Origin: Syntrophales bacterium | Lineage (GTDB): Bacteria > Desulfobacterota > Syntrophia > Syntrophales > PHBD01 | DNA: 64,000 nucleotides | NCBI GenBank assembly: GCA_963668175.1 | Contig: OY764159.1 | Span: 1,536,001-1,600,000, forward strand | Direction: 5' to 3' | Part shown: positions 36,041 to 50,706 of the stretch, piece after piece | Numbering within the stretch: position 1 is the stretch's first letter | How the letters are laid out: every line of letters starts with the position of its first letter | Position numbers and translations under genes: made by a program | Notes under the pieces: generated by a model | Told to the model about the DNA's origin: nothing | The model's database searches: none | Seen by the model: the letters and a program-made list of their open reading frames with translations, nothing else

Positions 36041-36562
36041 ATGATGGCAGACGAACAGGGTAAGAAAGCGATGGCCGTACGGTTGAACGTCAACGGCAGG
36101 GAGTACGCCTTCGATGCGGAACCCGATATGCCGCTTCTCTGGGCGATCCGGGAGAAAATAGGGCTGACCGGGACCAAGTACGGATGCGGAATAGCCCAAT
36201 GCGGGGCCTGTACGGTCCTCGTGAACGGAAAGGCGACACGCTCGTGCGTTACCCCCGTATCTTCCGTCGCAGGCAAGGAGATCGTCACGATCGAAGGGCT
36301 CTCGTCGGACGGCTCCCACCCCCTGCAGAAGGCCTGGGTGGATGAGGAAGTGCCTCAATGCGGTTACTGCCAGCCTGGGCAGATCATGACCGCTGCGGCC
36401 CTTCTCGTCGGGAACAAGAACCCAAGCGACGGCGATATCGACGAGGCCATGAAGGGCAATCTCTGCCGCTGCGGGACGTATCAACGCATCCGCCGCGCCG
36501 TTCACGCGGCTGCCGGTATGATGGGGAAAGCCAACAAGATGGAGAAAGGAGAGCGCGTATGA
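36041..36562 (+). CDS. 2Fe-2S subunit of xanthine dehydrogenase-family enzyme (IorA-like)
   Basis: [28 protein letters not shown]; start could be 36044 or 36071. Confidence 0.9.
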
Positions 36563-38727
36563 ACGGGATTTTCAAGATCTGTCGGCGCGATTTTCTCAAG
36601 TCAGGCCTCGTCATGGGCGGCGGGCTGGTCCTCGGCTTCTCTTTTCATCCGCTGGGGCCTTCGCAGGGAATGGCGTCGGCGCAACCATCGGCGCCGTTCG
36701 TTCCCAATGCCTTTATCCGCATTACCGACGACGACATCGTGACGGTCATCTGCAACAAGTCGGAGATGGGGCAGGGCGTTTACACGTCCCTTCCCATGCT
36801 TGTGGCCGAAGAACTGGAATGCGACTGGAGCCGCGTGCGGGTGGAGCCCGCCCCGGTCCATCCCGCTTATAACCATACCCAATGGGGTGTCATGCAGGGC
36901 ACCGGCGGGTCCACGAGCATCCGGAGCGAATGGGAGCGCCTCCGGAAGGCCGGGGCGGCGGCCAGGGAAATGCTTATCGCGGCCGCAGCGGCGACCTGGC
37001 AGACCGACAGATCGAACTGCCGTGCGGAGAACGGCATGGTCGTCCACAGCGACGGCCGGAAGCTCTCCTTCGGCCGGCTTGCCGCCAAGGCGGGCGAACA
37101 GCCGGTTCCCAGGGACGTGCCGCTGAAAGACCCGTCCGCCTTCAAAATCGTCGGCAAGCGCGTGCACAGGCTGGATACGCCGGACAAGGCGACCGGCAGG
37201 GCGTTGTTCGGCCTCGATGTGGCCGTACCCGGCATGCTGACGGCCGTCATCGCGCGTTCCCCCGTTTTCGGCGGCAAGGCGGCCGCTTTCCGCGACGGGA
37301 AGACGAGGACCGTGCCGGGCGTCAGGGACGTGGTCCAGGTGCCGACGGGCGTGGCCGTCATCGCCGACGGATTCTTTGCGGCCAAGAAGGGACGCGATTA
37401 TCTGGAGATCGACTGGGACGAAGGCGAGGGGGCGAAACTCTCGACGCCCGGCCAACGGGAAAGCTACAGGAAAATGGCCGCAACGCCGGGTGCGACGGCC
37501 AGGAAAGACGGCCGGGCCGACAAGGTCCTGCGCGGCGCCCGGAAGAAGCTCGAGGCCGAGTACGAGGTGCCCTATCTCGCGCATGCGATGATGGAGCCTC
37601 TCAACTGCCTGGTCGATTACCGGGGCGACCGTTGCGAAATCTGGACGGGCACCCAGTCCCAGACATCGGACCGGAACGCGGCGGCCTCAATCCTCGGGCT
37701 CAAGCCGGAACAGGTCGTTCTTCACACAACGTTCCTCGGCAGCGGCTTCGGACGCAGGGCCAATCCCCAGTCCGATTTCGTCCGCGAGGCCGCTTACGTG
37801 GCCAAGGCCGTGAAGCAACCGGTGAAGGTCGTCTGGACCCGGGAGGACGATACTCGCGGCGGCTTCTACCGGCCGATGTGGTTCGACCGGATCTCGGCGT
37901 CCCTCGACGCCAGGGGAAGGATCTCCGCCTGGAAACAGACCATCGTCGGCCAGTCGATTCTCGAAGGGACGCCCTTTGCCGGGATGATCAAGGACGGTGT
38001 GGACGAGACATCCGTGGAAGGGGCGTCCACGATGCCCTATGAAATCCCGAATGTAGCCGTGGATCTGCACAGCCCGAAATTACCCGTACCGGTCCAGTGG
38101 TGGCGGTCGGTGGGCCATTCCCATACGGCCTTCGTCGTCGAAAGCTTCATCGACGAACTGGCCCACGAGGCGAAAAAGGACCCCTACGAATTCCGCCGCC
38201 GCATGCTCGGCAGGCATCCCCGGAACCTGGGCGTCCTCGATCTGGCGGCGGATAAAGCGGGATGGGGCAAAAAGCTTCCCGAAGGCCGTTTCCGGGGCAT
38301 CGCCCAGCACGAGTCCTTCGGCAGTTTCATAGCCCAAGTGGCTGAAGTGTCGGTGGGTCAAGACGGCAAAGTCCGCGTCCATCGCGTGGTCTGCGCCGTC
38401 GATTGCGGACGCGTCGTCAATCCCGACACGATCGAAGCCCAGATGGAAGGCGGGATCATCTTCGGACTTTCCGCCGCCCTTTACGGCGCCATTACGCTGA
38501 AAAACGGCCGACCCGAGCAGAGCAACTTCCATAACTACAAACTGGTTCGCCTGGACGAAGCGCCGGTCATGGAGGTCCATATCGTCCCGAGCCGGGAGGC
38601 CCTGGGCGGGGTGGGGGAACCGGGTGTGCCGCCCATCGCCCCCGCAGTGGCGAATGCTGTTTTTGCCGCGACGGGCAAGCGAATCCGCTCGCTGCCGATC
38701 CGTCCGGAGATGCTGAAGAAAACATGA
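36559..38727 (+). CDS. Tat-exported molybdopterin subunit of xanthine dehydrogenase family (IorB-like)
   Basis: RRDFLK Tat motif, SEMGQG, GSGFGRR, WWRSVG, GGVGEPG; ATGA overlap with the small subunit. Confidence 0.9.
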
Positions 38728-39771: not shown

Positions 39772-39886
39772 ATGATCCCTCCCATCGAAAAATAAACGGG
39801 GAACAGAAGGAAAACCCGCTTCCCTCCGTTCCCCGCGTGTTTTCTGTTGTAGTATCCCGCCGTCGCATACGGGATGCATGGTTGTT

Positions 39887-41191
39887 TTATGCCGTTTTTT
39901 CCTCGGCGATTCTCTTTCTGACGATCGGCCGCAAGACAAAAAGGGCCAGGATGCACGCCGTGATGTCGAAAATAGCGGAGATATAATAGGGAACCTCAAA
40001 CGAACCGGCGTAATAAGCTGCAACCAGGGCCGCGCCATAACCGGCCAGGATGGACGCCATGCCTTTGGCCGTGTAGAGAATGCCGTAGTTGCCGGAGGCA
40101 TTCTTGGCTCCGAAAACGTCGCCCGTGAGGGCCGAGAAGAGCGCGTAAATCTCGCCCCAGGCCAGGAAGACAAAGGGCAGCAGGATGACGAAGGCGACCG
40201 GGCTTCCCATGATCTGCGTCATGAGGAAGATGAGGACGCCCTCCAGGCCGAAGGCGAAGGCCATGGTGTATTCCCTCCCGAATCTGTCGGATACCGCCCC
40301 CCACATGATCCTCGCGAATGCGTTGGTGACGCCGGCGATGGTCGCCGTGAACGGAACGATCGCGATGCCGAGGATCTTGGCGTCGAAGACGTTCAGGGAT
40401 TTGGCGATCTGGGAAAGGTTGCCGGTGGTCATCAGGCCGCCGGTGCAGACCATGAGGAACATGAAGTACATGATGTAGAATTCTTTTTTCGTGAGCATCT
40501 GCGTCCAGGTGTAGTTGACCTTGGTCTGGATAACGGCCTTGGGCGCCACCCATCCTGCCGGTTGCCAGCCGCCGGGGGGATGGCGCAGGATCAGGGCCAT
40601 GGCGATGGCCACGACGCCCTGGCCGAGGCCCCAGGCGGTCATGGCGCCCGCCCAGCCCAGGGCTTTAATCGTGGCGGCGACGGGGATGAGCGTCAGGGCC
40701 GAGCCGCCCCCGAAGCCGGCAGCCGTGAGCCCTGCCGCCAGGCCCCGCTTGTCCGGGAACCATTTGACGGCGTTGGCCACCGTGGCGATATAAATGATGC
40801 CTGCACCGGTACCGGCGATGAGACCGTAGTAGATATAGAGTTCATTGACTGTCGTGGCGACAGTGCCTCCCAGGACCCATCCCAGGAGGATGCCCGTGGC
40901 GCCTACCAGCATGAGGTTACGGATGCCGAACTTATCGATAAAGTATCCGGCGACGGGGACGGGCCACGTTTCGAAGAGAATAAACAGGGTGTAAATCAGG
41001 GCGATTTTTGCATAGGGAACATCGGCAAATTGCTGCTTCAATCCAGGGGTGAAAAGAGTGAAGGCGTATTGAAAGTTCGAAATAACGATCATCGCCATAA
41101 CGCCGGCTGCGAGCTGAATCCATCGATTGCCGACGAATGATCCGTAGGTTTGCTTAGCGAGGTCTACTTGAGCAATGCTCTCGTTTGACAT
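39887..41191 (-). CDS. oxlT: oxalate:formate antiporter-family MFS transporter
   Basis: 12-TM MFS; KWFPDKRGLA, NAFARIMWGAVSDRFGR and NYGILYTAK carry the Arg and Lys equivalent to the OxlT substrate-binding residues. Confidence 0.85.
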   Translation of the reverse strand: MSNESIAQVDLAKQTYGSFVGNRWIQLAAGVMAMIVISNFQYAFTLFTPGLKQQFADVPYAKIALIYTLFILFETWPVPVAGYFIDKFGIRNLMLVGATGILLGWVLGGTVATTVNELYIYYGLIAGTGAGIIYIATVANAVKWFPDKRGLAAGLTAAGFGGGSALTLIPVAATIKALGWAGAMTAWGLGQGVVAIAMALILRHPPGGWQPAGWVAPKAVIQTKVNYTWTQMLTKKEFYIMYFMFLMVCTGGLMTTGNLSQIAKSLNVFDAKILGIAIVPFTATIAGVTNAFARIMWGAVSDRFGREYTMAFAFGLEGVLIFLMTQIMGSPVAFVILLPFVFLAWGEIYALFSALTGDVFGAKNASGNYGILYTAKGMASILAGYGAALVAAYYAGSFEVPYYISAIFDITACILALFVLRPIVRKRIAEEKTA

Positions 41192-41301
41192 TTCTCCTCC
41201 TCCTTTCAACAACTTTAAAAGAACTCTGCCTCACCCGGGGAAACGCCCGCTGCGCGAGCGGGGCGTTCCCTCCGGCTGCGGCAGCTTACCGCCTGGTTGC
41301 G

Positions 41302-42303
<1,002 letters not shown>

Positions 42304-42326
42304 TTATCACCTCCTTATAGGTCCTG

Positions 42327-43520
42327 TTATGCTTCATCCTCAAACCCAACCCAGTAGACCTTCTGACGCACCTTCTTCTCCTTGATCATCTGCTGGAGGA
42401 TTTTCGCCATGTAGTAGAAGTCGTCGAGAAGGATCACGTCGCCGCCGAGGCCCGCCATGAACGACGTCAGAAGCGGTCTCTTTTCGAGATCGTACAGGGA
42501 GGCGCTCACCTCGTGGATCAGGTTGCCGCCCCGGGTGGCACCGCCGTAGGACGTGCTGGTCTCGACGGTGGCGATCGCCTTGACATGGGCGAGGGCTTCC
42601 ATGATCTGCTGGGTCGGCCAGGGCCTGATCCAGCGCGGCCGCACCATGCCGGCCTTAAGACCCTGCTTCCGCAACTGGCGGATGGCCGCTTTACACGTAT
42701 TGGCATGGGCTCCCTGGATGAAAAAGGCCACTTCGGCATCCTTCATTTCGTACTGTTCCAGGTACGGATCGATCTTCCGGCCGAAGATCTTGTTGTAATC
42801 GGCGACGGCCTGTTCGATGACCTTGGGCACTTCGAGGAAGGTCATGGCCCGCTGGGCGTCCATGGGCGCGCCCTGGTCCGGCCTGATCTGCGGTCCGTGG
42901 GAAACTGGGCAAGTCGGGCTCAGGGGGTGAGGAGCGCTGTAAGGAGGCAGAAATTCCCGGACCTGCGACAGTTCGGGGAGGACAACCTTATCCGGGATGT
43001 GGGAAAGGAAATACCCGTCCTGGCAGACGAACTGGGGCAGCATGATACGGGGGTCCTCTCCGACGCGGAAATTGATGAGCGTGTTATCGAAGACTTCCTG
43101 GGGGGTCGAGGCCCATCCCATCAGCCAGCCCTGGTCCCGGGCCGACATGCAGTCGGTGTGTTCCGATCCGAAGTCGCCGGGCGGGTCGAGGGTCCGGTCC
43201 GCAATGGCCATCTGCAGGGGATAACGGCCGCCGGCCGCCGGGCTGTAAACTTCAAAGGCATACGTGACGCCGACGCCGGAACTTCCCGTATAGGCACGGG
43301 CGCCGGCGGCGGATGCGCCCAGAACGACCGAAACCTGGGCGTGTTCACCTTCGCCGTGGATGAACTCGGCGTTGAGTTCTCCGTTGGCGACCATTTTAGA
43401 AAGCTCCATCATGATAGCCGTGTAGGGACGAATCGGGTAGGAGCAGATGACTTCCACTTCCGCGAATTTGGCCCCTTGCGCCGCCGCTGCACAGCCGCTG
43501 AGTAAATATTCTTTAGCCAT
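42327..43520 (-). CDS. oorA: oxalate oxidoreductase-type alpha subunit
   Basis: SYPIRPYT (Arg where PFOR has YPITP), GEGEH, DRTLDPPGDFG; RBS AGGAGG before ATG 43520. Confidence 0.88.
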   Translation of the reverse strand: MAKEYLLSGCAAAAQGAKFAEVEVICSYPIRPYTAIMMELSKMVANGELNAEFIHGEGEHAQVSVVLGASAAGARAYTGSSGVGVTYAFEVYSPAAGGRYPLQMAIADRTLDPPGDFGSEHTDCMSARDQGWLMGWASTPQEVFDNTLINFRVGEDPRIMLPQFVCQDGYFLSHIPDKVVLPELSQVREFLPPYSAPHPLSPTCPVSHGPQIRPDQGAPMDAQRAMTFLEVPKVIEQAVADYNKIFGRKIDPYLEQYEMKDAEVAFFIQGAHANTCKAAIRQLRKQGLKAGMVRPRWIRPWPTQQIMEALAHVKAIATVETSTSYGGATRGGNLIHEVSASLYDLEKRPLLTSFMAGLGGDVILLDDFYYMAKILQQMIKEKKVRQKVYWVGFEDEA

Positions 43521-43536
43521 AATATCATCCTCCTCC

Positions 43537-43866
43537 TTAGAAAGGTTTTTCCAGACGAACCACACCGTCGGGGAAATCGAGTTCCGGTTCGCCGGAGATG
43601 GCATCCACCGGGCATTCGTAGATGCAGATCTGGCATCCTTTGCAGAAGCGCCAGTTCCATTCCATCTGATCCTCTTTTTCGTTGTAGGACCAGCAGGAGT
43701 CCGGGCATGCGGCGTAGCAGGTGAAGCACCTGGTGCATTTTTCGTGGTCGATGACGGGACGGATGATCCTCCAGTTGGAGGTTTGAAAGAGGTCCTGCGT
43801 GTTAACCGGTGCAGGGGTTATCGCTCCGAACGGTACTTCCCTATCCTTAGGGATTTTGATAGCCAT
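43537..43866 (-). CDS. 2x[4Fe-4S] ferredoxin (delta) subunit of oxalate oxidoreductase
   Basis: NWRIIRP, CTRCFTCYAACP, CKGCQICIYECP, PELDF; own RBS AAAGGAGAG. Confidence 0.88.
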   Translation of the reverse strand: MAIKIPKDREVPFGAITPAPVNTQDLFQTSNWRIIRPVIDHEKCTRCFTCYAACPDSCWSYNEKEDQMEWNWRFCKGCQICIYECPVDAISGEPELDFPDGVVRLEKPF

Positions 43867-43915
43867 AACTATCTCTCCTTTCATGTTAATTGAAATCTGG
43901 TGGTCTGAAAAACCT

Positions 43916-44554
43916 TCATCCGCCCCACGAATATTCCGAACGGGTCTTGCGGAATTTTTCCATTTTGACTTCCTTGAAGCCGCGCTCCATAGCGGCCACG
44001 TCGCTGACGATCTTGGCGAGGTTTTCCTTCTTTGCCATGCCCGTCACCTTGGCCATGGCGCCCAGGATGGGCGCGGCGATACCGGCACCGACACCGGCGG
44101 CATCGACGCCGCCTTCCGATCCGGAGAAGTCGATCGTGCGGATTCCCGAGATCTTGTCCGCATCGACGGTCGCGACGGCGCCGAGAATGTCGGCATTGGG
44201 GATGAACTTGAGCATATAGTCGATGGATCTGTTCGTGTTGATAATCAGCAATCCCCCTTCGGGCATGCCCTTGAGGATATTGATTCCTTTGACAATGGTC
44301 GGCTCGACGATGACGACGATATCGGGATGGTTGTTGGTATAGAGGTACTTCATCTCGATTTCCTCGTCGCTGATGCGGACGTACTTCCTCGTAGTGACGA
44401 GGACGCGGTCCGGCAGGTCTTCGTAGTTGTCGAAGGCCTGCACAAATTTCCCGCCCATCTGGGCGGCCTGGGCGAAGGCATTGGCAACGTCGCGGGCCTC
44501 CTTGTCCATCGTGACCCCCCTCGTCCAAACGGTTACTTCAGTCATTTTTGCCAT
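43916..44554 (-). CDS. gamma subunit of oxalate oxidoreductase
   Basis: VTVWTRGV, QAFDNYEDLPDR, SGSEGGVDAAGVGAGIAAP; resembles the N-terminal part of Moorella OorD as I recall it. Confidence 0.85.
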   Translation of the reverse strand: MAKMTEVTVWTRGVTMDKEARDVANAFAQAAQMGGKFVQAFDNYEDLPDRVLVTTRKYVRISDEEIEMKYLYTNNHPDIVVIVEPTIVKGINILKGMPEGGLLIINTNRSIDYMLKFIPNADILGAVATVDADKISGIRTIDFSGSEGGVDAAGVGAGIAAPILGAMAKVTGMAKKENLAKIVSDVAAMERGFKEVKMEKFRKTRSEYSWGG

Positions 44555-44629
44555 ATGATTGTTCCTCCTTCATGATAATGCTGAACCGTTAATTGAAACT
44601 CGAAATTACCAGTCGTCTCTCGTCGGCGG

Positions 44630-45343
44630 TTAAGCCTTGTTTCCACCTCCTTCTCGTTTTTTTATGAGTAGGGCCTTTTCTATGCCTTCCAGATGACGCT
44701 TCATCGCCTTCTTGGCCTCCTTTCCGTCCCGGCATTTCACCGCGGCCAGGATGGCGCGGTGACCGTCCAGGGACTTCCGTTTTCTTTCTTCCGTCTGGAG
44801 ATACTCGTCGCGCGTTTTCCGAAGCAGGCGGACGAGGGCCACGTTGAGCCTCTCCAGGACGGCATTCCTGGACATCCGGGAAAGGGCGATATGGAAATTG
44901 GAATCCGATAGAACGGAATGCCCGCCCTCCTTCAGGTCGTTTTCCTGCTTGCCGATGAGCCTTTCCAGTTCCTTGACGTCTCTTGCCGTTGCATTCTGGC
45001 TTGCAAGTTCGGCGATTTCCGACTCGATGATTTTGCGGACGGCGAACATGTCGATCATGTCGTCTTTTTCCGTGAAAATGGACGATGCCAGGGGCTGAAT
45101 GATGGCCTCTTCGCTGGACGCCATGACGTACGTGCCGTCCCCCTGCCGCCTCTCGACGAGGTTCAGGGTCTCGAGCGAAAGGATGGCCTCCCGCACTGTG
45201 GAGCGGGAGACTTTAAAGGTTTCCGAGAGTTCGTTTTCGTTGGGGAGTTGGTCGCCCTGCTTGAGCCTGCCGTTGGTGATGAGTTCCTTGATCTGCGTGA
45301 CGATGTCTTCGTATGCGCGTTTCTTTTTGACCTCTTTCAACAT
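44630..45343 (-). CDS. FadR/GntR-family transcriptional regulator (PdhR/LutR-like)
   Basis: GDQLPNENELSETFKVSRSTVREA wHTH; FCD domain DSNFH...H; ATG 45343 overlaps the ATPase stop. Confidence 0.9.
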   Translation of the reverse strand: MLKEVKKKRAYEDIVTQIKELITNGRLKQGDQLPNENELSETFKVSRSTVREAILSLETLNLVERRQGDGTYVMASSEEAIIQPLASSIFTEKDDMIDMFAVRKIIESEIAELASQNATARDVKELERLIGKQENDLKEGGHSVLSDSNFHIALSRMSRNAVLERLNVALVRLLRKTRDEYLQTEERKRKSLDGHRAILAAVKCRDGKEAKKAMKRHLEGIEKALLIKKREGGGNKA

Positions 45344-47475
45344 GACGATAGCCCATCCCTTTCTCGGATAAGATTTATGGCCTCCCGGAAATGGGAGGAG
45401 TTCACGGCAAATTGATCGGATCGCGATACCTGCGGGGTGGTGATGAACTCCGTAATAGCCGCCATGACGGCGTTCCGACAGATGAAGGCGATTTGGGAGC
45501 CTGCCATTCCTTCCGTCTGCCGGGCCAACGCCGCCATGTCGACATCGTGGGCGATGGGTTTGTCCTTCAGATTGACCTTGAAAATCTCGAGACGGTCCTT
45601 TTCGTCGGCCATGGGGAAAGGGATGATATAGTCGAGACGGCCCGCCCTCGTCAGGCCGGGGTCGAGCAAATCTTCGCGGTTGGTGGCGCCGAGGACGATG
45701 ATCTGGGAAAGGTCCGTCAGGTTGTCCAGTTCGTTGAAAAACTGGCTCGCCATTCTCTCGACGACGGCCCCGCCGTCGCTTGCGCCCTGGCGCGTCAAGC
45801 CCAGCGTATCGATTTCGTCGAAAAAGAGGATGCACGGCGCCGATTGCTTGGCCTTCTTGAATATCTGGTGGAGGGCCTTTTCCGATTCCCCGAGCCATTT
45901 TGAGAAGAGGATGGGGACGCTGATGGAGATGAAATTAAGTCCCGTTTCACCAGCGAGGGCCTTCGCCATGAGCGTCTTTCCCGTTCCGGACGGCCCGGAG
46001 AAGAGGATGCCCCGGGGCGGCATGACCTTGCCGGCGGCGAACAACTCCGGGTATTTCGTCGGCCATTCGACGATGGAGATCAGGGTTTCCTTGATCTTGT
46101 TGAGGCCGCCGACATGGTGCCACTTGACGTTGGAGCGCTCGGTGTAGAACTCGCGGGTCGCCGTCGGTTCGATCTCCCGGAGCGCCATGAGAAAATCGTC
46201 CATGGTGATCTGCAGGTGGCCGGAGTTGCCGAGAATATTCTCCAGCCTGTCTTCGCCCTCCAGGGACAGGTATCGCCTGAGGGCGACCATGCCCGCCTCC
46301 TTGCACAGGGCTTCCAGATCGGCGCCGACAAAGGCATGGGTGATCCGGGCGAGGCGGTCGAGGTCCACATCCGGCGCCAGCGGCATACGGTGGCTGTGGA
46401 TACCGAGAATGGCCCTCCGTCCTTCGACATTGGGGACAGGGATGACGATCTCGCGGTCGAAGCGACCCGGACGCCTCAGGGCCGGGTCGATGACCTCGGG
46501 AATGTTTGTTGCACCTATGACGACCACGTGCCCCCGCGATACCATGCCGTCCATGAGGGCGAGCAATTGGGCCACGACGCGCTTTTCCACGTCGCCCAGC
46601 ACCTCGGCCCGCTTGGGAGCGATGGCGTCGATTTCGTCGATGAAGATGACGCTGGGGGCCTTCAGGGTGGCTTCTTCGAATATCTCGCGGAGCCTGGCCT
46701 CGCTTTCGCCGTAGAACCGGTGGATGATTTCCGGACCGTTGACCCGTATGAAATGAAGCCTCGTCTCGCTGGCAATGGCGCGGGCGATCAGGGTCTTGCC
46801 CGTACCGGGCGGTCCGTAGAGGAGCACGCCCTTCGGGGCCTGGATGCCCAGCTTTTCGAAAGCCTCGGCGTAACGCAGAGGCAGCTCGACCATTTCCCGG
46901 ACGAGCCTGAGTTCCTTCTCCAGGCCGCCGATATGATCGTAGGAGACGATCTGCGAGGGCTCCAGGCTGAAGTCGGGTTTCTTCAGGACGAAGGACGTCT
47001 GCTGGTTGATAATGACGCCGCCCGAAGGCGACGTGGCCTCGACGAGAAAATAACGCTCTTTTCCCGCCAGGAAGGGCATATTGATCCGGTCGCCGACGAT
47101 AACGGCGATCCCCTGGAGGACTTTCGCAAATTGCTCCATCTCCCGTTCGTCGGGAAGGACGGTGGTGAAATCGACCGGTGTGATGACGACCGAGATCGCC
47201 GTCCTGCGGCTGATTTTTTTGATCTTGACCGTTCCGCCCGGAAGAGCCTGGGCGTTTTCACGGGTAAGACCGTCGATATAGACGGCTTTTTTGCCGCTGT
47301 ATTGCGGGAAGGCGGCCGTCAGGCGGGCCACAGTCGTCTTTCTCCCGGAGATCTCCACGACGTCGCCTAGCGTGCCCTTGAGGGAGGCAATGTCTTCGGG
47401 ATCGAGGCGGGCAAGACCTTTGCCCACATCGTCGGGAAGGGCTTCGTCGACTTTGAATTCCAGGACCGTATCCAT
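45337..47475 (-). CDS. Cdc48/p97/VAT-family double AAA+ ATPase
   Basis: N-domain DVGKGLARLD; D1 GPPGTGKT/FIDEID/RRPGRFDR; D2 GPSGTGKT/KWLGESE/FFDEID/RAGRLD. Confidence 0.92.
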   Translation of the reverse strand: MDTVLEFKVDEALPDDVGKGLARLDPEDIASLKGTLGDVVEISGRKTTVARLTAAFPQYSGKKAVYIDGLTRENAQALPGGTVKIKKISRRTAISVVITPVDFTTVLPDEREMEQFAKVLQGIAVIVGDRINMPFLAGKERYFLVEATSPSGGVIINQQTSFVLKKPDFSLEPSQIVSYDHIGGLEKELRLVREMVELPLRYAEAFEKLGIQAPKGVLLYGPPGTGKTLIARAIASETRLHFIRVNGPEIIHRFYGESEARLREIFEEATLKAPSVIFIDEIDAIAPKRAEVLGDVEKRVVAQLLALMDGMVSRGHVVVIGATNIPEVIDPALRRPGRFDREIVIPVPNVEGRRAILGIHSHRMPLAPDVDLDRLARITHAFVGADLEALCKEAGMVALRRYLSLEGEDRLENILGNSGHLQITMDDFLMALREIEPTATREFYTERSNVKWHHVGGLNKIKETLISIVEWPTKYPELFAAGKVMPPRGILFSGPSGTGKTLMAKALAGETGLNFISISVPILFSKWLGESEKALHQIFKKAKQSAPCILFFDEIDTLGLTRQGASDGGAVVERMASQFFNELDNLTDLSQIIVLGATNREDLLDPGLTRAGRLDYIIPFPMADEKDRLEIFKVNLKDKPIAHDVDMAALARQTEGMAGSQIAFICRNAVMAAITEFITTPQVSRSDQFAVNSSHFREAINLIRERDGLSSC

Positions 47476-47492
47476 GACGTTACCGGAAGGGG

Positions 47493-47523
47493 GATTGTAT
47501 AATCATCAGATGATTGTACGATC
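47493..47523. promoter_or_regulatory. 31-bp palindromic operator (FadR/LutR-type TCATC-N-GATGA core)
   Basis: GATTGTATAATCATC-A-GATGATTGTACGATC, arms match 13/15. Confidence 0.75.
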
Positions 47524-47525
47524 GA

Positions 47526-47553
47526 ACATTACCAGCATTGCCGGATTTGTCAA
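47526..47553 (-). promoter_or_regulatory. sigma-70 promoter of the AAA-GntR-oor locus
   Basis: Minus-strand TTGACA-16-TAATGT with TGn extended -10. Confidence 0.65.
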
Positions 47554-47730
47554 TACCTTTTCTTTAAAGAAAGACAAGAATCGGCCGCAAGATACCTGCT
47601 GAAAGTATTGTTATACAGGGAATCTGGAGGCAGCGAGAGAGGAAGTGCCCTGTAGTAGGGAATGACGTTTTACATAAGGACGGGGCCACGGCCGTTTGCG
47701 TATAACGGAACGGCGCTGCAAACGCGGTTC

Positions 47731-47769
47731 AAAAAAGAACCCACCTGTTATTCTAAAGCAGGTGGGTTC
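47731..47769 (-). terminator. intrinsic terminator of ppsA
   Basis: GAACCCACCTG...CAGGTGGGTTC stem followed by T6 on the minus strand. Confidence 0.85.

Positions 47770-47841: not shown

Positions 47842-50706
<2,865 letters not shown>

What the first reader, a model, noticed from the sequence alone, without database searches (positions are those of the whole stretch)
45337..47475. Cdc48/p97-like unfoldase as first gene of the oxalate oxidoreductase locus
Seen: an N-D1-D2 AAA+ protein with intact Walker A/B motifs in both rings, aromatic pore loops (RFYG, KWLG) and no C-terminal HbYX motif (ends DGLSSC). Its stop overlaps the regulator start, and it sits directly behind the operator. Established: Cdc48/VAT are eukaryotic and archaeal unfoldases, sporadic in bacteria. 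Inference: a dedicated activase or chaperone that assembles OOR, or reactivates it by releasing damaged TPP or inhibitory adducts, analogous to Rubisco activase. This would be an undescribed role for a bacterial Cdc48.
Basis: partly seen in the sequence, partly recalled or inferred. Interest (0 to 1): 0.8.

Follow-up and report, generated by a model that had tools for sequence, protein, structure and literature searches.

The report
Cdc48-type unfoldase tied to oxalate oxidoreductase
A protein-unfolding ATPase of the Cdc48/VAT type is the first gene of an oxalate-breakdown operon and travels with the oxalate oxidoreductase genes through many bacterial phyla, which points to an undescribed helper devoted to one metabolic enzyme.

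Summary
Window 45337-47475 (minus strand) encodes a 712-aa N-D1-D2 Cdc48/VAT-type AAA+ ATPase with intact Walker motifs, aromatic pore loops in both rings and no HbYX tail. It is the first gene of cdc48-gntR-oorGDAB-oxlT, behind a conserved palindromic operator.

Of 109 assessable OOR loci from at least seven phyla, 101 carry a Cdc48-like gene. In two phylum-wide genome samples, 39 of 43 OOR-bearing genomes have it on the same contig as oorA. This includes close relatives of the crystallised enzyme.

OOR-linked ATPases form one clade. Its nearest relatives are bacterial Cdc48s that sit in gas-vesicle gene clusters. Cdc48 and OOR trees show the same cross-phylum groupings (distance correlation r = 0.91).

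This genome has one Cdc48 and no 20S proteasome. Four genomes have OOR and no Cdc48, so the ATPase is an accessory rather than obligatory.

Functional coupling to OOR is well supported. The proposed reactivase or remodelling mechanism remains inference. Complex prediction gave no answer and no RNA run was listed.

I found no paper describing the pairing. This scan has found the same pairing before on other genomes.

The parts
47737..47769 (-). Hairpin (11-nt arms, 11-nt loop) followed by a T run. Likely terminator of the upstream PEP synthase gene, which separates that gene from the oxalate operon.
   Evidence: I2; sequence read
47548..47553 (-). Perfect -35-like TTGACA. The best -10 candidates, 16-17 nt downstream, match only 3 of 6 (TAATGT / AATGTT).
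   Evidence: Read from the sequence. The consensus scan did not report it because the -10 is too weak.
47493..47523 (.). Palindromic operator, presumably the GntR/FCD binding site, just downstream of the -10 candidates and 18-48 nt upstream of the cdc48 ATG.
   Evidence: I1. The core occurs once in the window. The exact core lies about 40-50 nt upstream of cdc48 in 10 related locus entries.
45337..47475 (-). Cdc48/VAT-type AAA+ ATPase, N-D1-D2, 712 aa (P0001). First gene of the operon.
44630..45343 (-). GntR-family regulator with an FCD ligand domain, 237 aa. Its ATG overlaps the cdc48 stop by 7 nt.
43916..44554 (-). OOR gamma subunit (domain III), 212 aa. It covers positions 12-212 of NCBIfam's 316-position OOR 'delta' model.
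43537..43884 (-). OOR ferredoxin-like subunit, 115 aa, two 4Fe-4S motifs. It is a separate gene here and is fused to gamma in some Bacillota (L262, 315 aa).
42327..43520 (-). OOR alpha subunit, 397 aa. The start is ATG 43520, behind GGAGGAGG. The longer ORF from 43604 overlaps the ferredoxin gene.
41302..42300 (-). OOR beta subunit (TPP-binding), 332 aa.
   Evidence: NF045792: 569.6 bits, cut-off 590
39887..41212 (-). Oxalate/formate antiporter-type MFS transporter.
   Evidence: TIGR04259: 384.6 bits, cut-off 335
39796..39836 (-). Strong intrinsic-terminator-like hairpin (18 pairs, then a T run) directly after the transporter gene. Likely end of the operon.

Best explanation
The gene encodes an active, VAT-like double-ring unfoldase. 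It belongs to a distinct bacterial Cdc48 subfamily whose members are dedicated to oxalate oxidoreductase (OOR). It is transcribed from the oxalate operon's own repressor-controlled promoter, so it is made only together with OOR. The most likely job is to act on OOR itself as a stand-alone remodeller. In this reading it pulls on or extracts a subunit of enzyme that is mis-assembled or inactivated (a dead-end TPP adduct or damaged Fe-S clusters), so that the enzyme can be reloaded, reassembled or cleared. It improves OOR function but is not absolutely required for it. SHOWN: the domain architecture and motif integrity; the operon layout; co-location across phyla; a clade of its own; co-inheritance with the oor genes; the absence of a 20S proteasome and of an HbYX tail. 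INFERRED: co-transcription; a physical interaction with OOR; the identity of the client subunit; whether the outcome is repair, assembly or disposal.
For: Architecture and motifs. Within the OOR-linked clade (45 rows), the D1 Walker A Lys, the D1 Walker B Asp-Glu, the D1 pore-loop Tyr and the D2 pore-loop Trp are each kept in 45 of 45 rows; the D2 Walker B Glu is kept in 39 of 45. Operon layout: a 7-nt stop/start overlap with gntR, gaps of 75 nt or less down to beta, 89 nt to the transporter, a strong terminator only after the transporter, and a hairpin after the upstream PEP synthase gene. The operator core is exact in 10 related locus entries upstream of cdc48. Association: 11 of the 12 closest homologues are followed by gntR-oorGAB, and the 12th contig ends. 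101 of 109 unique OOR loci with at least 5 kb upstream of oorA hold a Cdc48. By label these are Acidobacteriota 40/44, Thermodesulfobacteriota 30/30, 'Deltaproteobacteria' 17/18, Pseudomonadota 3/5, Nitrospirota 3/3, Bacillota 3/3, Methylomirabilota 3/3, Chloroflexota 1/2 and unlabelled 1/1. In a sample of 401 Thermodesulfobacteriota genomes, all 13 with OOR-level alpha have a Cdc48, 11 of them on the same contig 2-4 kb upstream. In a sample of 401 Bacillota genomes, 28 of 30 have it on the same contig. Specificity: this genome has 4 OFOR-alpha matches but a single Cdc48, and it lies at OOR. Clade: OOR-linked rows form one branch with SH-aLRT 100 (74 rows) and 99 (94 rows). In the 107-row tree the 44 linked rows plus one row of unknowable context (L259) form one clade. 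Co-inheritance: Cdc48 and OOR-alpha pairwise distances correlate at r = 0.91 (Mantel, 0 of 999 permutations as high), compared with 0.88 for alpha against beta. The same cross-phylum groupings appear in both trees. No degradation partner of the archaeal kind: PF00227 finds only HslV, and there is no HbYX tail. The sister bacterial Cdc48s sit in another structure-specific context, gas-vesicle clusters, which fits client-dedicated chaperones. A paper title seen in a reference list (Pierce et al. 2017, 'suicide inactivation by pyruvate') shows that OOR has a known dead-end state. I could not read that paper.
Against: There is no physical or expression evidence of any kind. Four of five genomes whose oor locus lacks the ATPase have no Cdc48 anywhere at E <= 1e-60, and one of them is a 3.4-Mb chromosome. 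OOR can therefore exist without it. Only 4 alignment columns distinguish the OOR clade from other Cdc48s, and none lies in the N domain. The N domain, the usual client/adaptor site, is the least conserved part, with mean identity 0.44 within the clade. The loci were collected by pattern-seeded searches capped at 80 hits (best 80 of 97 and of 378 relatives), and related genomes are not independent. The counts therefore overstate the number of independent observations. Distance correlation is expected for any genes inherited together and does not show contact.
Confidence: 0.5

Rival explanations
1. General proteostasis helper co-induced with oxalate catabolism. On this reading it is a broad-specificity unfoldase or disaggregase that deals with collateral protein damage during growth on oxalate, and it has no specific tie to OOR as a client.
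For: The sister clade is encoded beside Hsp20-type holdases, as in general disaggregation systems. There are few clade-specific residues. OOR occurs without it in four genomes.
Against: It is the only Cdc48 in this genome and it lies under the oxalate operon's operator. Every clade member whose context can be read lies at an oor locus. It has moved between phyla together with the oor genes.
Confidence: 0.15
2. Regulated degradation. The ATPase unfolds OOR, or the GntR repressor, and hands it to a protease for turnover when conditions change.
For: Archaeal Cdc48/VAT and actinobacterial Cpa work with the 20S proteasome (passages read in PMC6017811). The pore loops are of the processive, aromatic type.
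Against: There is no HbYX tail. There is no 20S proteasome in this complete genome, only HslV. No protease gene is conserved in the operon.
Confidence: 0.12
3. Obligatory biogenesis factor. The ATPase is needed once per enzyme molecule, to assemble the heterotetramer or to insert TPP or Fe-S clusters.
For: It holds the first position in the operon. Other AAA+ proteins serve as metallo-enzyme maturation factors (recalled, not tested here). The sister clade lies in gas-vesicle assembly clusters.
Against: Intact-looking oor loci exist in four genomes with no Cdc48.
Confidence: 0.12
4. Partner of the regulator. The ATPase remodels or strips the GntR/FCD repressor, or uses it as an adaptor, and so belongs to the control circuit rather than to the enzyme.
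For: gntR is next to cdc48 in almost all loci, on either side of it. In this lineage the two genes overlap by 7 nt.
Against: In the beta-proteobacterial loci L133 and L137, Cdc48 is kept near the oor genes with no GntR hit in the locus. No AAA+ partner is known for FCD regulators (recalled).
Confidence: 0.06

Closest known systems
Archaeal VAT / Cdc48 (PDB 5g4g, 5g4f 'VCP-like ATPase') and eukaryotic p97/Cdc48
   Same: It has the same N-D1-D2 architecture, with E 1.1e-180 to 5g4g_A. Both rings have complete Walker motifs. The D1 and D2 pore loops are aromatic, which I recall as the VAT-like state, unlike p97 D1.
   Different: It is bacterial and lacks an HbYX tail, and the genome has no 20S proteasome. 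It scores just under NCBIfam's CDC48 cut-off (770.8 against 802.65). It is encoded inside a catabolic operon and is tied to one enzyme.
[quoted passage not shown] 2018, PMC6017811; listing and passages read)
   Same: It is a bacterial tandem-AAA Cdc48 relative without a classical HbYX motif.
   Different: Cpa forms a separate actinobacterial cluster and binds the 20S proteasome. [quoted passage not shown] The present protein is one of those. I did not place Cpa sequences in my trees.
Bacterial Cdc48-type ATPases in gas-vesicle gene clusters (found here: L232-L241, L250, L251, L253-L258, L260)
   Same: They are the nearest relatives in the trees. The OOR and gas-vesicle clades together exclude all other rows when the tree is rooted on an archaeon. 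They are likewise embedded in a cluster for one specific protein assembly.
   Different: Their neighbours are GvpL/F, an Hsp20/GvpH-like protein and GvpA-family genes, not OOR.
Enzyme-specific AAA+ activases such as Rubisco activase (Rca, CbbX, CbbQO); recalled, functional analogy only
   Same: The shared idea is an ATPase encoded with one enzyme that remodels it to release a dead-end active-site state.
   Different: They belong to different AAA+ clades and have a single ring. No reactivation has been shown for OOR.
Oxalate oxidoreductase (PDB 5c4i, 5exd, 5exe)
   Same: The operon's alpha, beta and gamma/ferredoxin genes are orthologues. Bacillota loci closest to the crystallised enzyme (L261 alpha: E 1.7e-215) have the order gntR-cdc48-gamma-alpha-beta.
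   Different: Here gamma and the ferredoxin domain are separate genes, and gntR follows cdc48 rather than preceding it.

Membership tests
Cdc48/VAT/p97 family (type II AAA+) | N-terminal double-psi barrel plus beta-clam domain | tested here: met
   Pfam CDC48_N 65.4 bits (cut-off 35.1) at residues 7-88; CDC48_2 34.1 bits (cut-off 22.4) at residues 109-164.
Cdc48/VAT/p97 family (type II AAA+) | Two tandem AAA modules with Walker A/B motifs and lid domains | tested here: met
   Two AAA and two AAA_lid_3 stretches. Motifs at 221-228, 277-283, 494-501 and 550-556. They are invariant or nearly so across 41 orthologues.
Cdc48/VAT/p97 family (type II AAA+) | Curated whole-protein score of NCBIfam TIGR01243 (CDC48 family AAA ATPase) | tested here: not met
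   770.8 bits against a cut-off of 802.65. It is still the best-scoring model by far.
Proteasome-activating Cdc48 (archaeal type) | C-terminal HbYX motif and a 20S proteasome in the genome | tested here: not met
   The protein ends in SSC. None of the 36 OOR-linked rows listed has a penultimate Tyr. PF00227 finds one gene in the genome, which is HslV.
Processive unfoldase (VAT-like) | Aromatic pore-loop-1 residues in both rings | tested here: met
   D1 has F254-Y255 and D2 has W527. Tyr and Trp are each kept in 45 of 45 clade rows. Unfolding activity itself cannot be tested here.
OOR-linked bacterial Cdc48 subfamily (defined here) | Falls in the clade whose members lie at oor loci | tested here: met
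   SH-aLRT 100 and 99. In one search the clade holds 44 linked rows plus L259, whose 6165-nt contig ends 153 nt after the gene.
Enzyme reactivase / activase (functional class) | ATP-dependent restoration of activity to the inhibited client enzyme | not testable with these tools
   This needs biochemistry. Complex prediction gave no answer (see Tried and rejected).
Oxalate oxidoreductase operon (context) | Alpha, beta and gamma/delta subunits reach the NCBIfam equivalog cut-offs, and an oxalate/formate antiporter is present | tested here: met
   Alpha 560.8 (cut-off 500); delta model 235.9 (cut-off 230); antiporter 384.6 (cut-off 335); beta 569.6, just under its cut-off of 590. Alpha matches 5c4i_A at E 2.4e-149.

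The most novel reading that the evidence does not exclude
This would be the first 'repair AAA+' for a thiamine-pyrophosphate / iron-sulfur enzyme, and the first client-specific job for a bacterial Cdc48. In this reading the hexamer recognises OOR that is stuck in a dead-end state, for example after suicide inactivation by pyruvate or after cluster damage. It extracts or partly unfolds one subunit to uncork the buried active site, so that the spent cofactor can leave and the enzyme can reassemble. With the gas-vesicle-cluster sister clade, this would mean bacterial Cdc48s are dedicated single-client segregases rather than general quality-control machines.
Probability: 0.3. Interest if true: 0.85.

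Novelty: new variant of a known kind. Interest (0 to 1): 0.66.

Why it matters
Non-actinobacterial bacterial Cdc48 homologues have been noted only as sporadic imports from archaea, with no assigned function (PMC6017811, passages read). Here they resolve into at least two context-specific subfamilies, and one of them is tied to a single metabolic enzyme across many phyla. That gives an orphan class of unfoldases a concrete and easily testable client.

It also raises the possibility that OOR, an oxygen-sensitive TPP/Fe-S enzyme with a reported suicide-inactivation route, needs ATP-driven maintenance. That would matter for anaerobic oxalate turnover in soils and sediments. It would also matter for attempts to express OOR heterologously.

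Tried and rejected
1. Complex prediction of the Cdc48 N domain (residues 1-175, alignment A1) with OOR gamma (alignment A2) returned 'no answer', score 0.00 in two runs, and the controls were not run. This is neither support nor evidence against. Alpha, beta, the ferredoxin subunit and GntR were not tried because only one job was allowed.

2. Expression: no RNA holder was listed for window 41302-47600.

3. Papers: Pierce 2010 (by DOI and as PMC3003350), Pierce 2017 (PMC5463272) and Gibson 2015 (PMC4498597) are not held. Whether the original OOR papers mention the neighbouring ATPase could not be checked. I recall a 'CDC48 subfamily' annotation beside the Moorella oor genes, but that is recollection only.

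4. Literature searches for 'oxalate oxidoreductase' with AAA, ATPase, CDC48, GntR, unfoldase or chaperone and for Moth_1592-1595 locus tags returned nothing on the pairing. I judged this from listings only. The one paper I opened with find (PMC13768988) cites OOR but says nothing about an ATPase.

5. I looked for an N-domain signature of the OOR clade. Only 4 clade-specific columns were found (G395, L535, L550, F620), and none is in the N domain.

6. A divergent Cdc48 (L245, 39% identity) lies beside four cupin genes, and I asked whether this marks a second oxalate link through oxalate decarboxylase. I rejected this. NCBIfam gives only weak dioxygenase-type hits.

7. I asked whether L120 lacks the ATPase because of masked bases. 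It does not. There are no N runs, and a gamma-glutamyltranspeptidase gene occupies the place.

8. The single PF00227 hit is not a 20S subunit. It is HslV.

9. G425 looked like a Bacillota OOR genome without Cdc48. It is not assessable, because its contig ends about 0.7 kb past gamma.
Full report
OBSERVATION

The ORF 45337..47475 lies on the minus strand and encodes 712 aa. Pfam gives CDC48_N, CDC48_2, two AAA modules and two AAA lids. The best solved relatives are the archaeal 'VCP-like ATPase' 5g4g_A (E 1.1e-180) and p97 chains (about 1e-163). NCBIfam's CDC48 model is the top hit at 770.8 bits, just under its cut-off of 802.65.

Both rings have complete Walker A and B motifs. The pore loops are aromatic: HRFYGESE at 252-259 and SKWLGESE at 525-532. 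The protein ends in DGLSSC, without a penultimate Tyr.

THE OPERON

On the minus strand a PEP synthase gene (47842-50706) ends in a hairpin followed by a T run (47737-47769). Next come a perfect TTGACA with only a weak -10 (read) and a 15-nt-arm inverted repeat at 47493-47523. The genes then follow in this order:

- cdc48
- a GntR/FCD regulator, whose ATG overlaps the cdc48 stop (ATGTTGA)
- OOR gamma (43916-44554)
- a separate two-cluster ferredoxin subunit (43537-43884)
- OOR alpha, starting at ATG 43520 behind GGAGGAGG
- OOR beta
- an oxalate/formate-antiporter-type MFS transporter

An 18-pair terminator-like hairpin at 39836-39796 follows the transporter directly. Alpha matches the crystallised OOR alpha 5c4i_A at E 2.4e-149 and passes NCBIfam's OOR-alpha equivalog cut-off.

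The operator core ATCATCNGATGAT occurs once in the window. It occurs exactly, about 40-50 nt upstream of cdc48, in 10 related locus entries (L009, L010, L011, L081, L082, L085, L093, L106, L107, L112; L010 and L081 are the same contig). There is one further, probably chance, hit in a gas-vesicle-type locus, L239. Co-transcription is inferred from this layout and has not been shown.

IS THE ATPASE CO-CONSERVED WITH OOR?

Starting from the ATPase, the 12 closest homologues in the genome collection are 66-76% identical. Eleven of them are followed by gntR-oorG-oorA-oorB in the same order, and the twelfth contig ends at the gene. The remaining 68 kept hits, at 49% identity or less, had no OOR.

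Starting from OOR alpha, I ran two scans. They kept the best 80 of 97 relatives and the best 80 of 378. After removing duplicates there were 142 unique OOR loci. Of these, 109 have at least 5 kb upstream of oorA, and 101 of the 109 hold a Cdc48-like gene. In 99 it lies just upstream. In two beta-proteobacterial loci it lies about 6 kb downstream.

By record label the counts are:

- Acidobacteriota 40/44
- Thermodesulfobacteriota 30/30
- 'Deltaproteobacteria' 17/18
- Pseudomonadota 3/5
- Nitrospirota 3/3
- Bacillota 3/3
- Methylomirabilota 3/3
- Chloroflexota 1/2
- unlabelled 1/1

Among the 33 loci that were not assessable, 12 show a partial Cdc48 at the contig edge.

WHOLE-GENOME SAMPLES

In 401 genomes of the window's own phylum, 10 pass the OOR-alpha cut-off and 3 more hold truncated or near-cut-off copies. 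All 13 have a Cdc48 match at E <= 1e-100. In 11 it lies on the same contig, 2-4 kb upstream of oorA. In 2 it lies on another contig.

In 401 Bacillota genomes, 30 pass the cut-off. In 28 of them the ATPase lies on the same contig directly upstream. One has it on another contig. One has none, but its contig ends about 0.7 kb past gamma.

The Bacillota loci with the highest scores against NCBIfam's OOR model have the order gntR-cdc48-gamma-alpha-beta. The alpha of one of them (L261) matches 5c4i_A at E 1.7e-215 over its full length. Close relatives of the characterised enzyme therefore carry the ATPase too.

A CLADE OF ITS OWN, WITH A TELLING SISTER

After dereplication at 85% identity, the first tree had 74 rows. 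Its 36 OOR-linked rows separate from 38 unlinked archaeal and bacterial rows on one branch, with SH-aLRT 100.

The phylum samples also contain Cdc48 genes in genomes without OOR: about 38 Thermodesulfobacteriota genomes and 9 Bacillota genomes. I fetched 17 and 8 of these. Nineteen lie between GvpL/F genes and an Hsp20/GvpH-like gene. GvpA-family genes lie within 10 kb in all 5 genomes I checked. None of the 17 Thermodesulfobacteriota loci has an OFOR hit.

With these rows added, the OOR-linked rows stay on one branch with SH-aLRT 99, and the gas-vesicle rows form another with SH-aLRT 98 (94 rows). In the 107-row tree rooted on an archaeon, the 44 linked rows form a clade with one extra member, L259. 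L259 lies on a 6165-nt contig that ends 153 nt after the gene, so its context cannot be read. The OOR and gas-vesicle clades together exclude all other rows.

These are quick IQ-TREE searches under LG+G4. No AU test was run, and Cpa sequences were not included.

CO-INHERITANCE

Across 40 linked loci, pairwise Cdc48 distances track OOR-alpha distances at r = 0.91 (Mantel, 0 of 999 permutations as high). This is as tight as alpha against beta, at 0.88.

The alpha+beta tree shows the same groupings that cut across phyla:

- Chloroflexota with Terriglobia
- a Thermoanaerobaculia locus with delta-proteobacterial ones
- NC10 with a beta-proteobacterium

The cassette has evidently moved as a unit. 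This shows common inheritance and transfer, not physical contact.

WHAT THE PROTEIN CAN AND CANNOT BE

The catalytic and pore-loop residues are kept throughout the clade. The D1 Walker A Lys, the D1 Walker B Asp-Glu, the D1 pore Tyr and the D2 pore Trp are each present in 45 of 45 rows. The D2 Walker B Glu is present in 39 of 45. It is therefore an active, VAT-like threading motor under selection.

This complete 4.57-Mb genome has one Cdc48. It has no 20S proteasome; the single PF00227 hit is HslV. None of the 36 OOR-linked rows listed has an HbYX-like end, whereas several archaeal rows end in FYG, YFG or YYG. The archaeal proteasome-feeding mode is therefore unlikely.

The same genome has four OFOR-alpha matches, and the one Cdc48 sits at OOR.

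EVIDENCE THAT LIMITS THE CLAIM

Eight of the 109 assessable loci lack the gene. I searched five of the corresponding genomes in full. Four have no Cdc48 at E <= 1e-60. The fifth has one at the end of another contig. In L120 a gamma-glutamyltranspeptidase gene lies where cdc48 would be, while sister loci L121-L123 keep cdc48. OOR can therefore exist without the ATPase, so it is an accessory.

Only four alignment columns are specific to the clade, and none is in the N domain. The N domain is also the least conserved part, with mean identity 0.44 against 0.71 for D1 and 0.55 for D2.

The searches were capped and pattern-seeded, and related genomes are not independent.

MECHANISM

My best reading, at confidence 0.5, is an OOR-dedicated, stand-alone remodelling unfoldase. 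It would be made only with OOR and would extract or partly unfold a subunit of mis-assembled or dead-end enzyme, so that the enzyme can be reloaded or cleared. The coupling to OOR is shown by comparative genomics. The contact, the client subunit and the outcome are inference.

One reference title suggests a plausible dead-end state: 'suicide inactivation by pyruvate' (Pierce et al. 2017). I saw it only in the reference list of PMC13768988 and could not read the paper.

The rivals, with my estimates, are:

- a general stress chaperone (0.15)
- a degradation module (0.12)
- an obligatory assembly factor (0.12)
- a partner of the GntR regulator (0.06)

COMPARISON WITH WHAT IS KNOWN, AND NOVELTY

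By architecture the protein is a member of the Cdc48/VAT family. It fails the proteasome-activator features.

Ziemski et al. 2018 (PMC6017811; passages read) describe Cpa as a separate actinobacterial cluster that binds the proteasome. [quoted passage not shown]

Searches combining 'oxalate oxidoreductase' with AAA, ATPase, CDC48, GntR, unfoldase or chaperone, and with Moth_1592-1595 locus tags, returned no paper on the pairing (judged from listings). The founding OOR papers are not held, so a passing mention there cannot be excluded.

This scan has noted the same pairing before on other genomes (e1-4362198, e1-1406384, e1-758320, e1-3256694, e1-5074174). My counts agree with those notes. A further note (e1-1921237) reports a stand-alone Cdc48-N-like barrel in front of OOR-like operons in archaea. 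I did not test it.

VERDICT

I class it as a new variant of a known kind, with interest 0.66.

Noticed in passing
L232-L241, L250, L251 (Thermodesulfobacteriota) and L253-L258, L260 (Bacillota); e.g. L232:4018-11229: A second bacterial Cdc48 subfamily, sister to the OOR-linked one, sits in gas-vesicle gene clusters. The order in L232 is sigma-54 response regulator, Hsp20/GvpH-like, Cdc48, GvpL/F, GvpL/F, PAS histidine kinase. GvpA-family genes lie within 10 kb in 5 of 5 genomes checked. One literature search (gas vesicle + Cdc48 + GvpF) listed a single haloarchaeal paper, which I did not open.
   Followed up: partly
window 47842-50706 (-): The PEP synthase upstream (NCBIfam PRK06464, 1200.7 bits) carries a C-terminal tail of about 150 aa rich in Lys, Ala and Pro. 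The tail hits Pfam HC2, a histone H1-like nucleoprotein family, at residues 806-952. This is an unusual appendage for this enzyme.
   Followed up: no
L180:8115-9947 (also L182, L183, L228): Acidobacteriota OOR loci carry an extra gene of about 610 aa (558 aa in L228) between gamma and alpha. I scanned only L180, where it is a GltD/SudA-like flavoprotein (Pyr_redox_2 + Fer4_20).
   Followed up: partly
L245:4686-12775: A divergent Cdc48-like gene (39% identity, the second copy in its genome) is flanked by four tandem cupin-domain paralogues of about 380 aa and a reductive-dehalogenase-like gene. The cupins are not oxalate decarboxylases by NCBIfam. This may be a third client-specific context.
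   Followed up: partly
window 45337-45343, and the C-termini listed: Fifteen of the 36 OOR-linked rows, all from the delta-proteobacterial/Nitrospirota group, end in Cys. In the window the last codons, TGT TGA, contain the TG of the overlapping gntR ATG. The conserved terminal Cys is therefore probably a by-product of the gene overlap rather than a functional residue.
   Followed up: partly
window 43537-44554; L262:7210-8154: OOR gamma (domain III) and the two-cluster ferredoxin domain are separate genes in the window and in most loci. They are one 315-aa protein in a Bacillota locus, which matches NCBIfam's 316-position 'delta' model.
   Followed up: partly
G203:C66:18580-20698; G364:C366; G340:C173; G291:C22: Some OOR-linked cdc48 genes in draft genomes show a frameshift or an in-frame stop. 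These could be assembly errors or decay. I did not examine them.
   Followed up: no
window 36358-38727 (+): A 789-aa protein with molybdopterin-cofactor-binding domains (MoCoBD_1 and MoCoBD_2) lies on the opposite strand beyond the operon. No link to the finding is evident.
   Followed up: no
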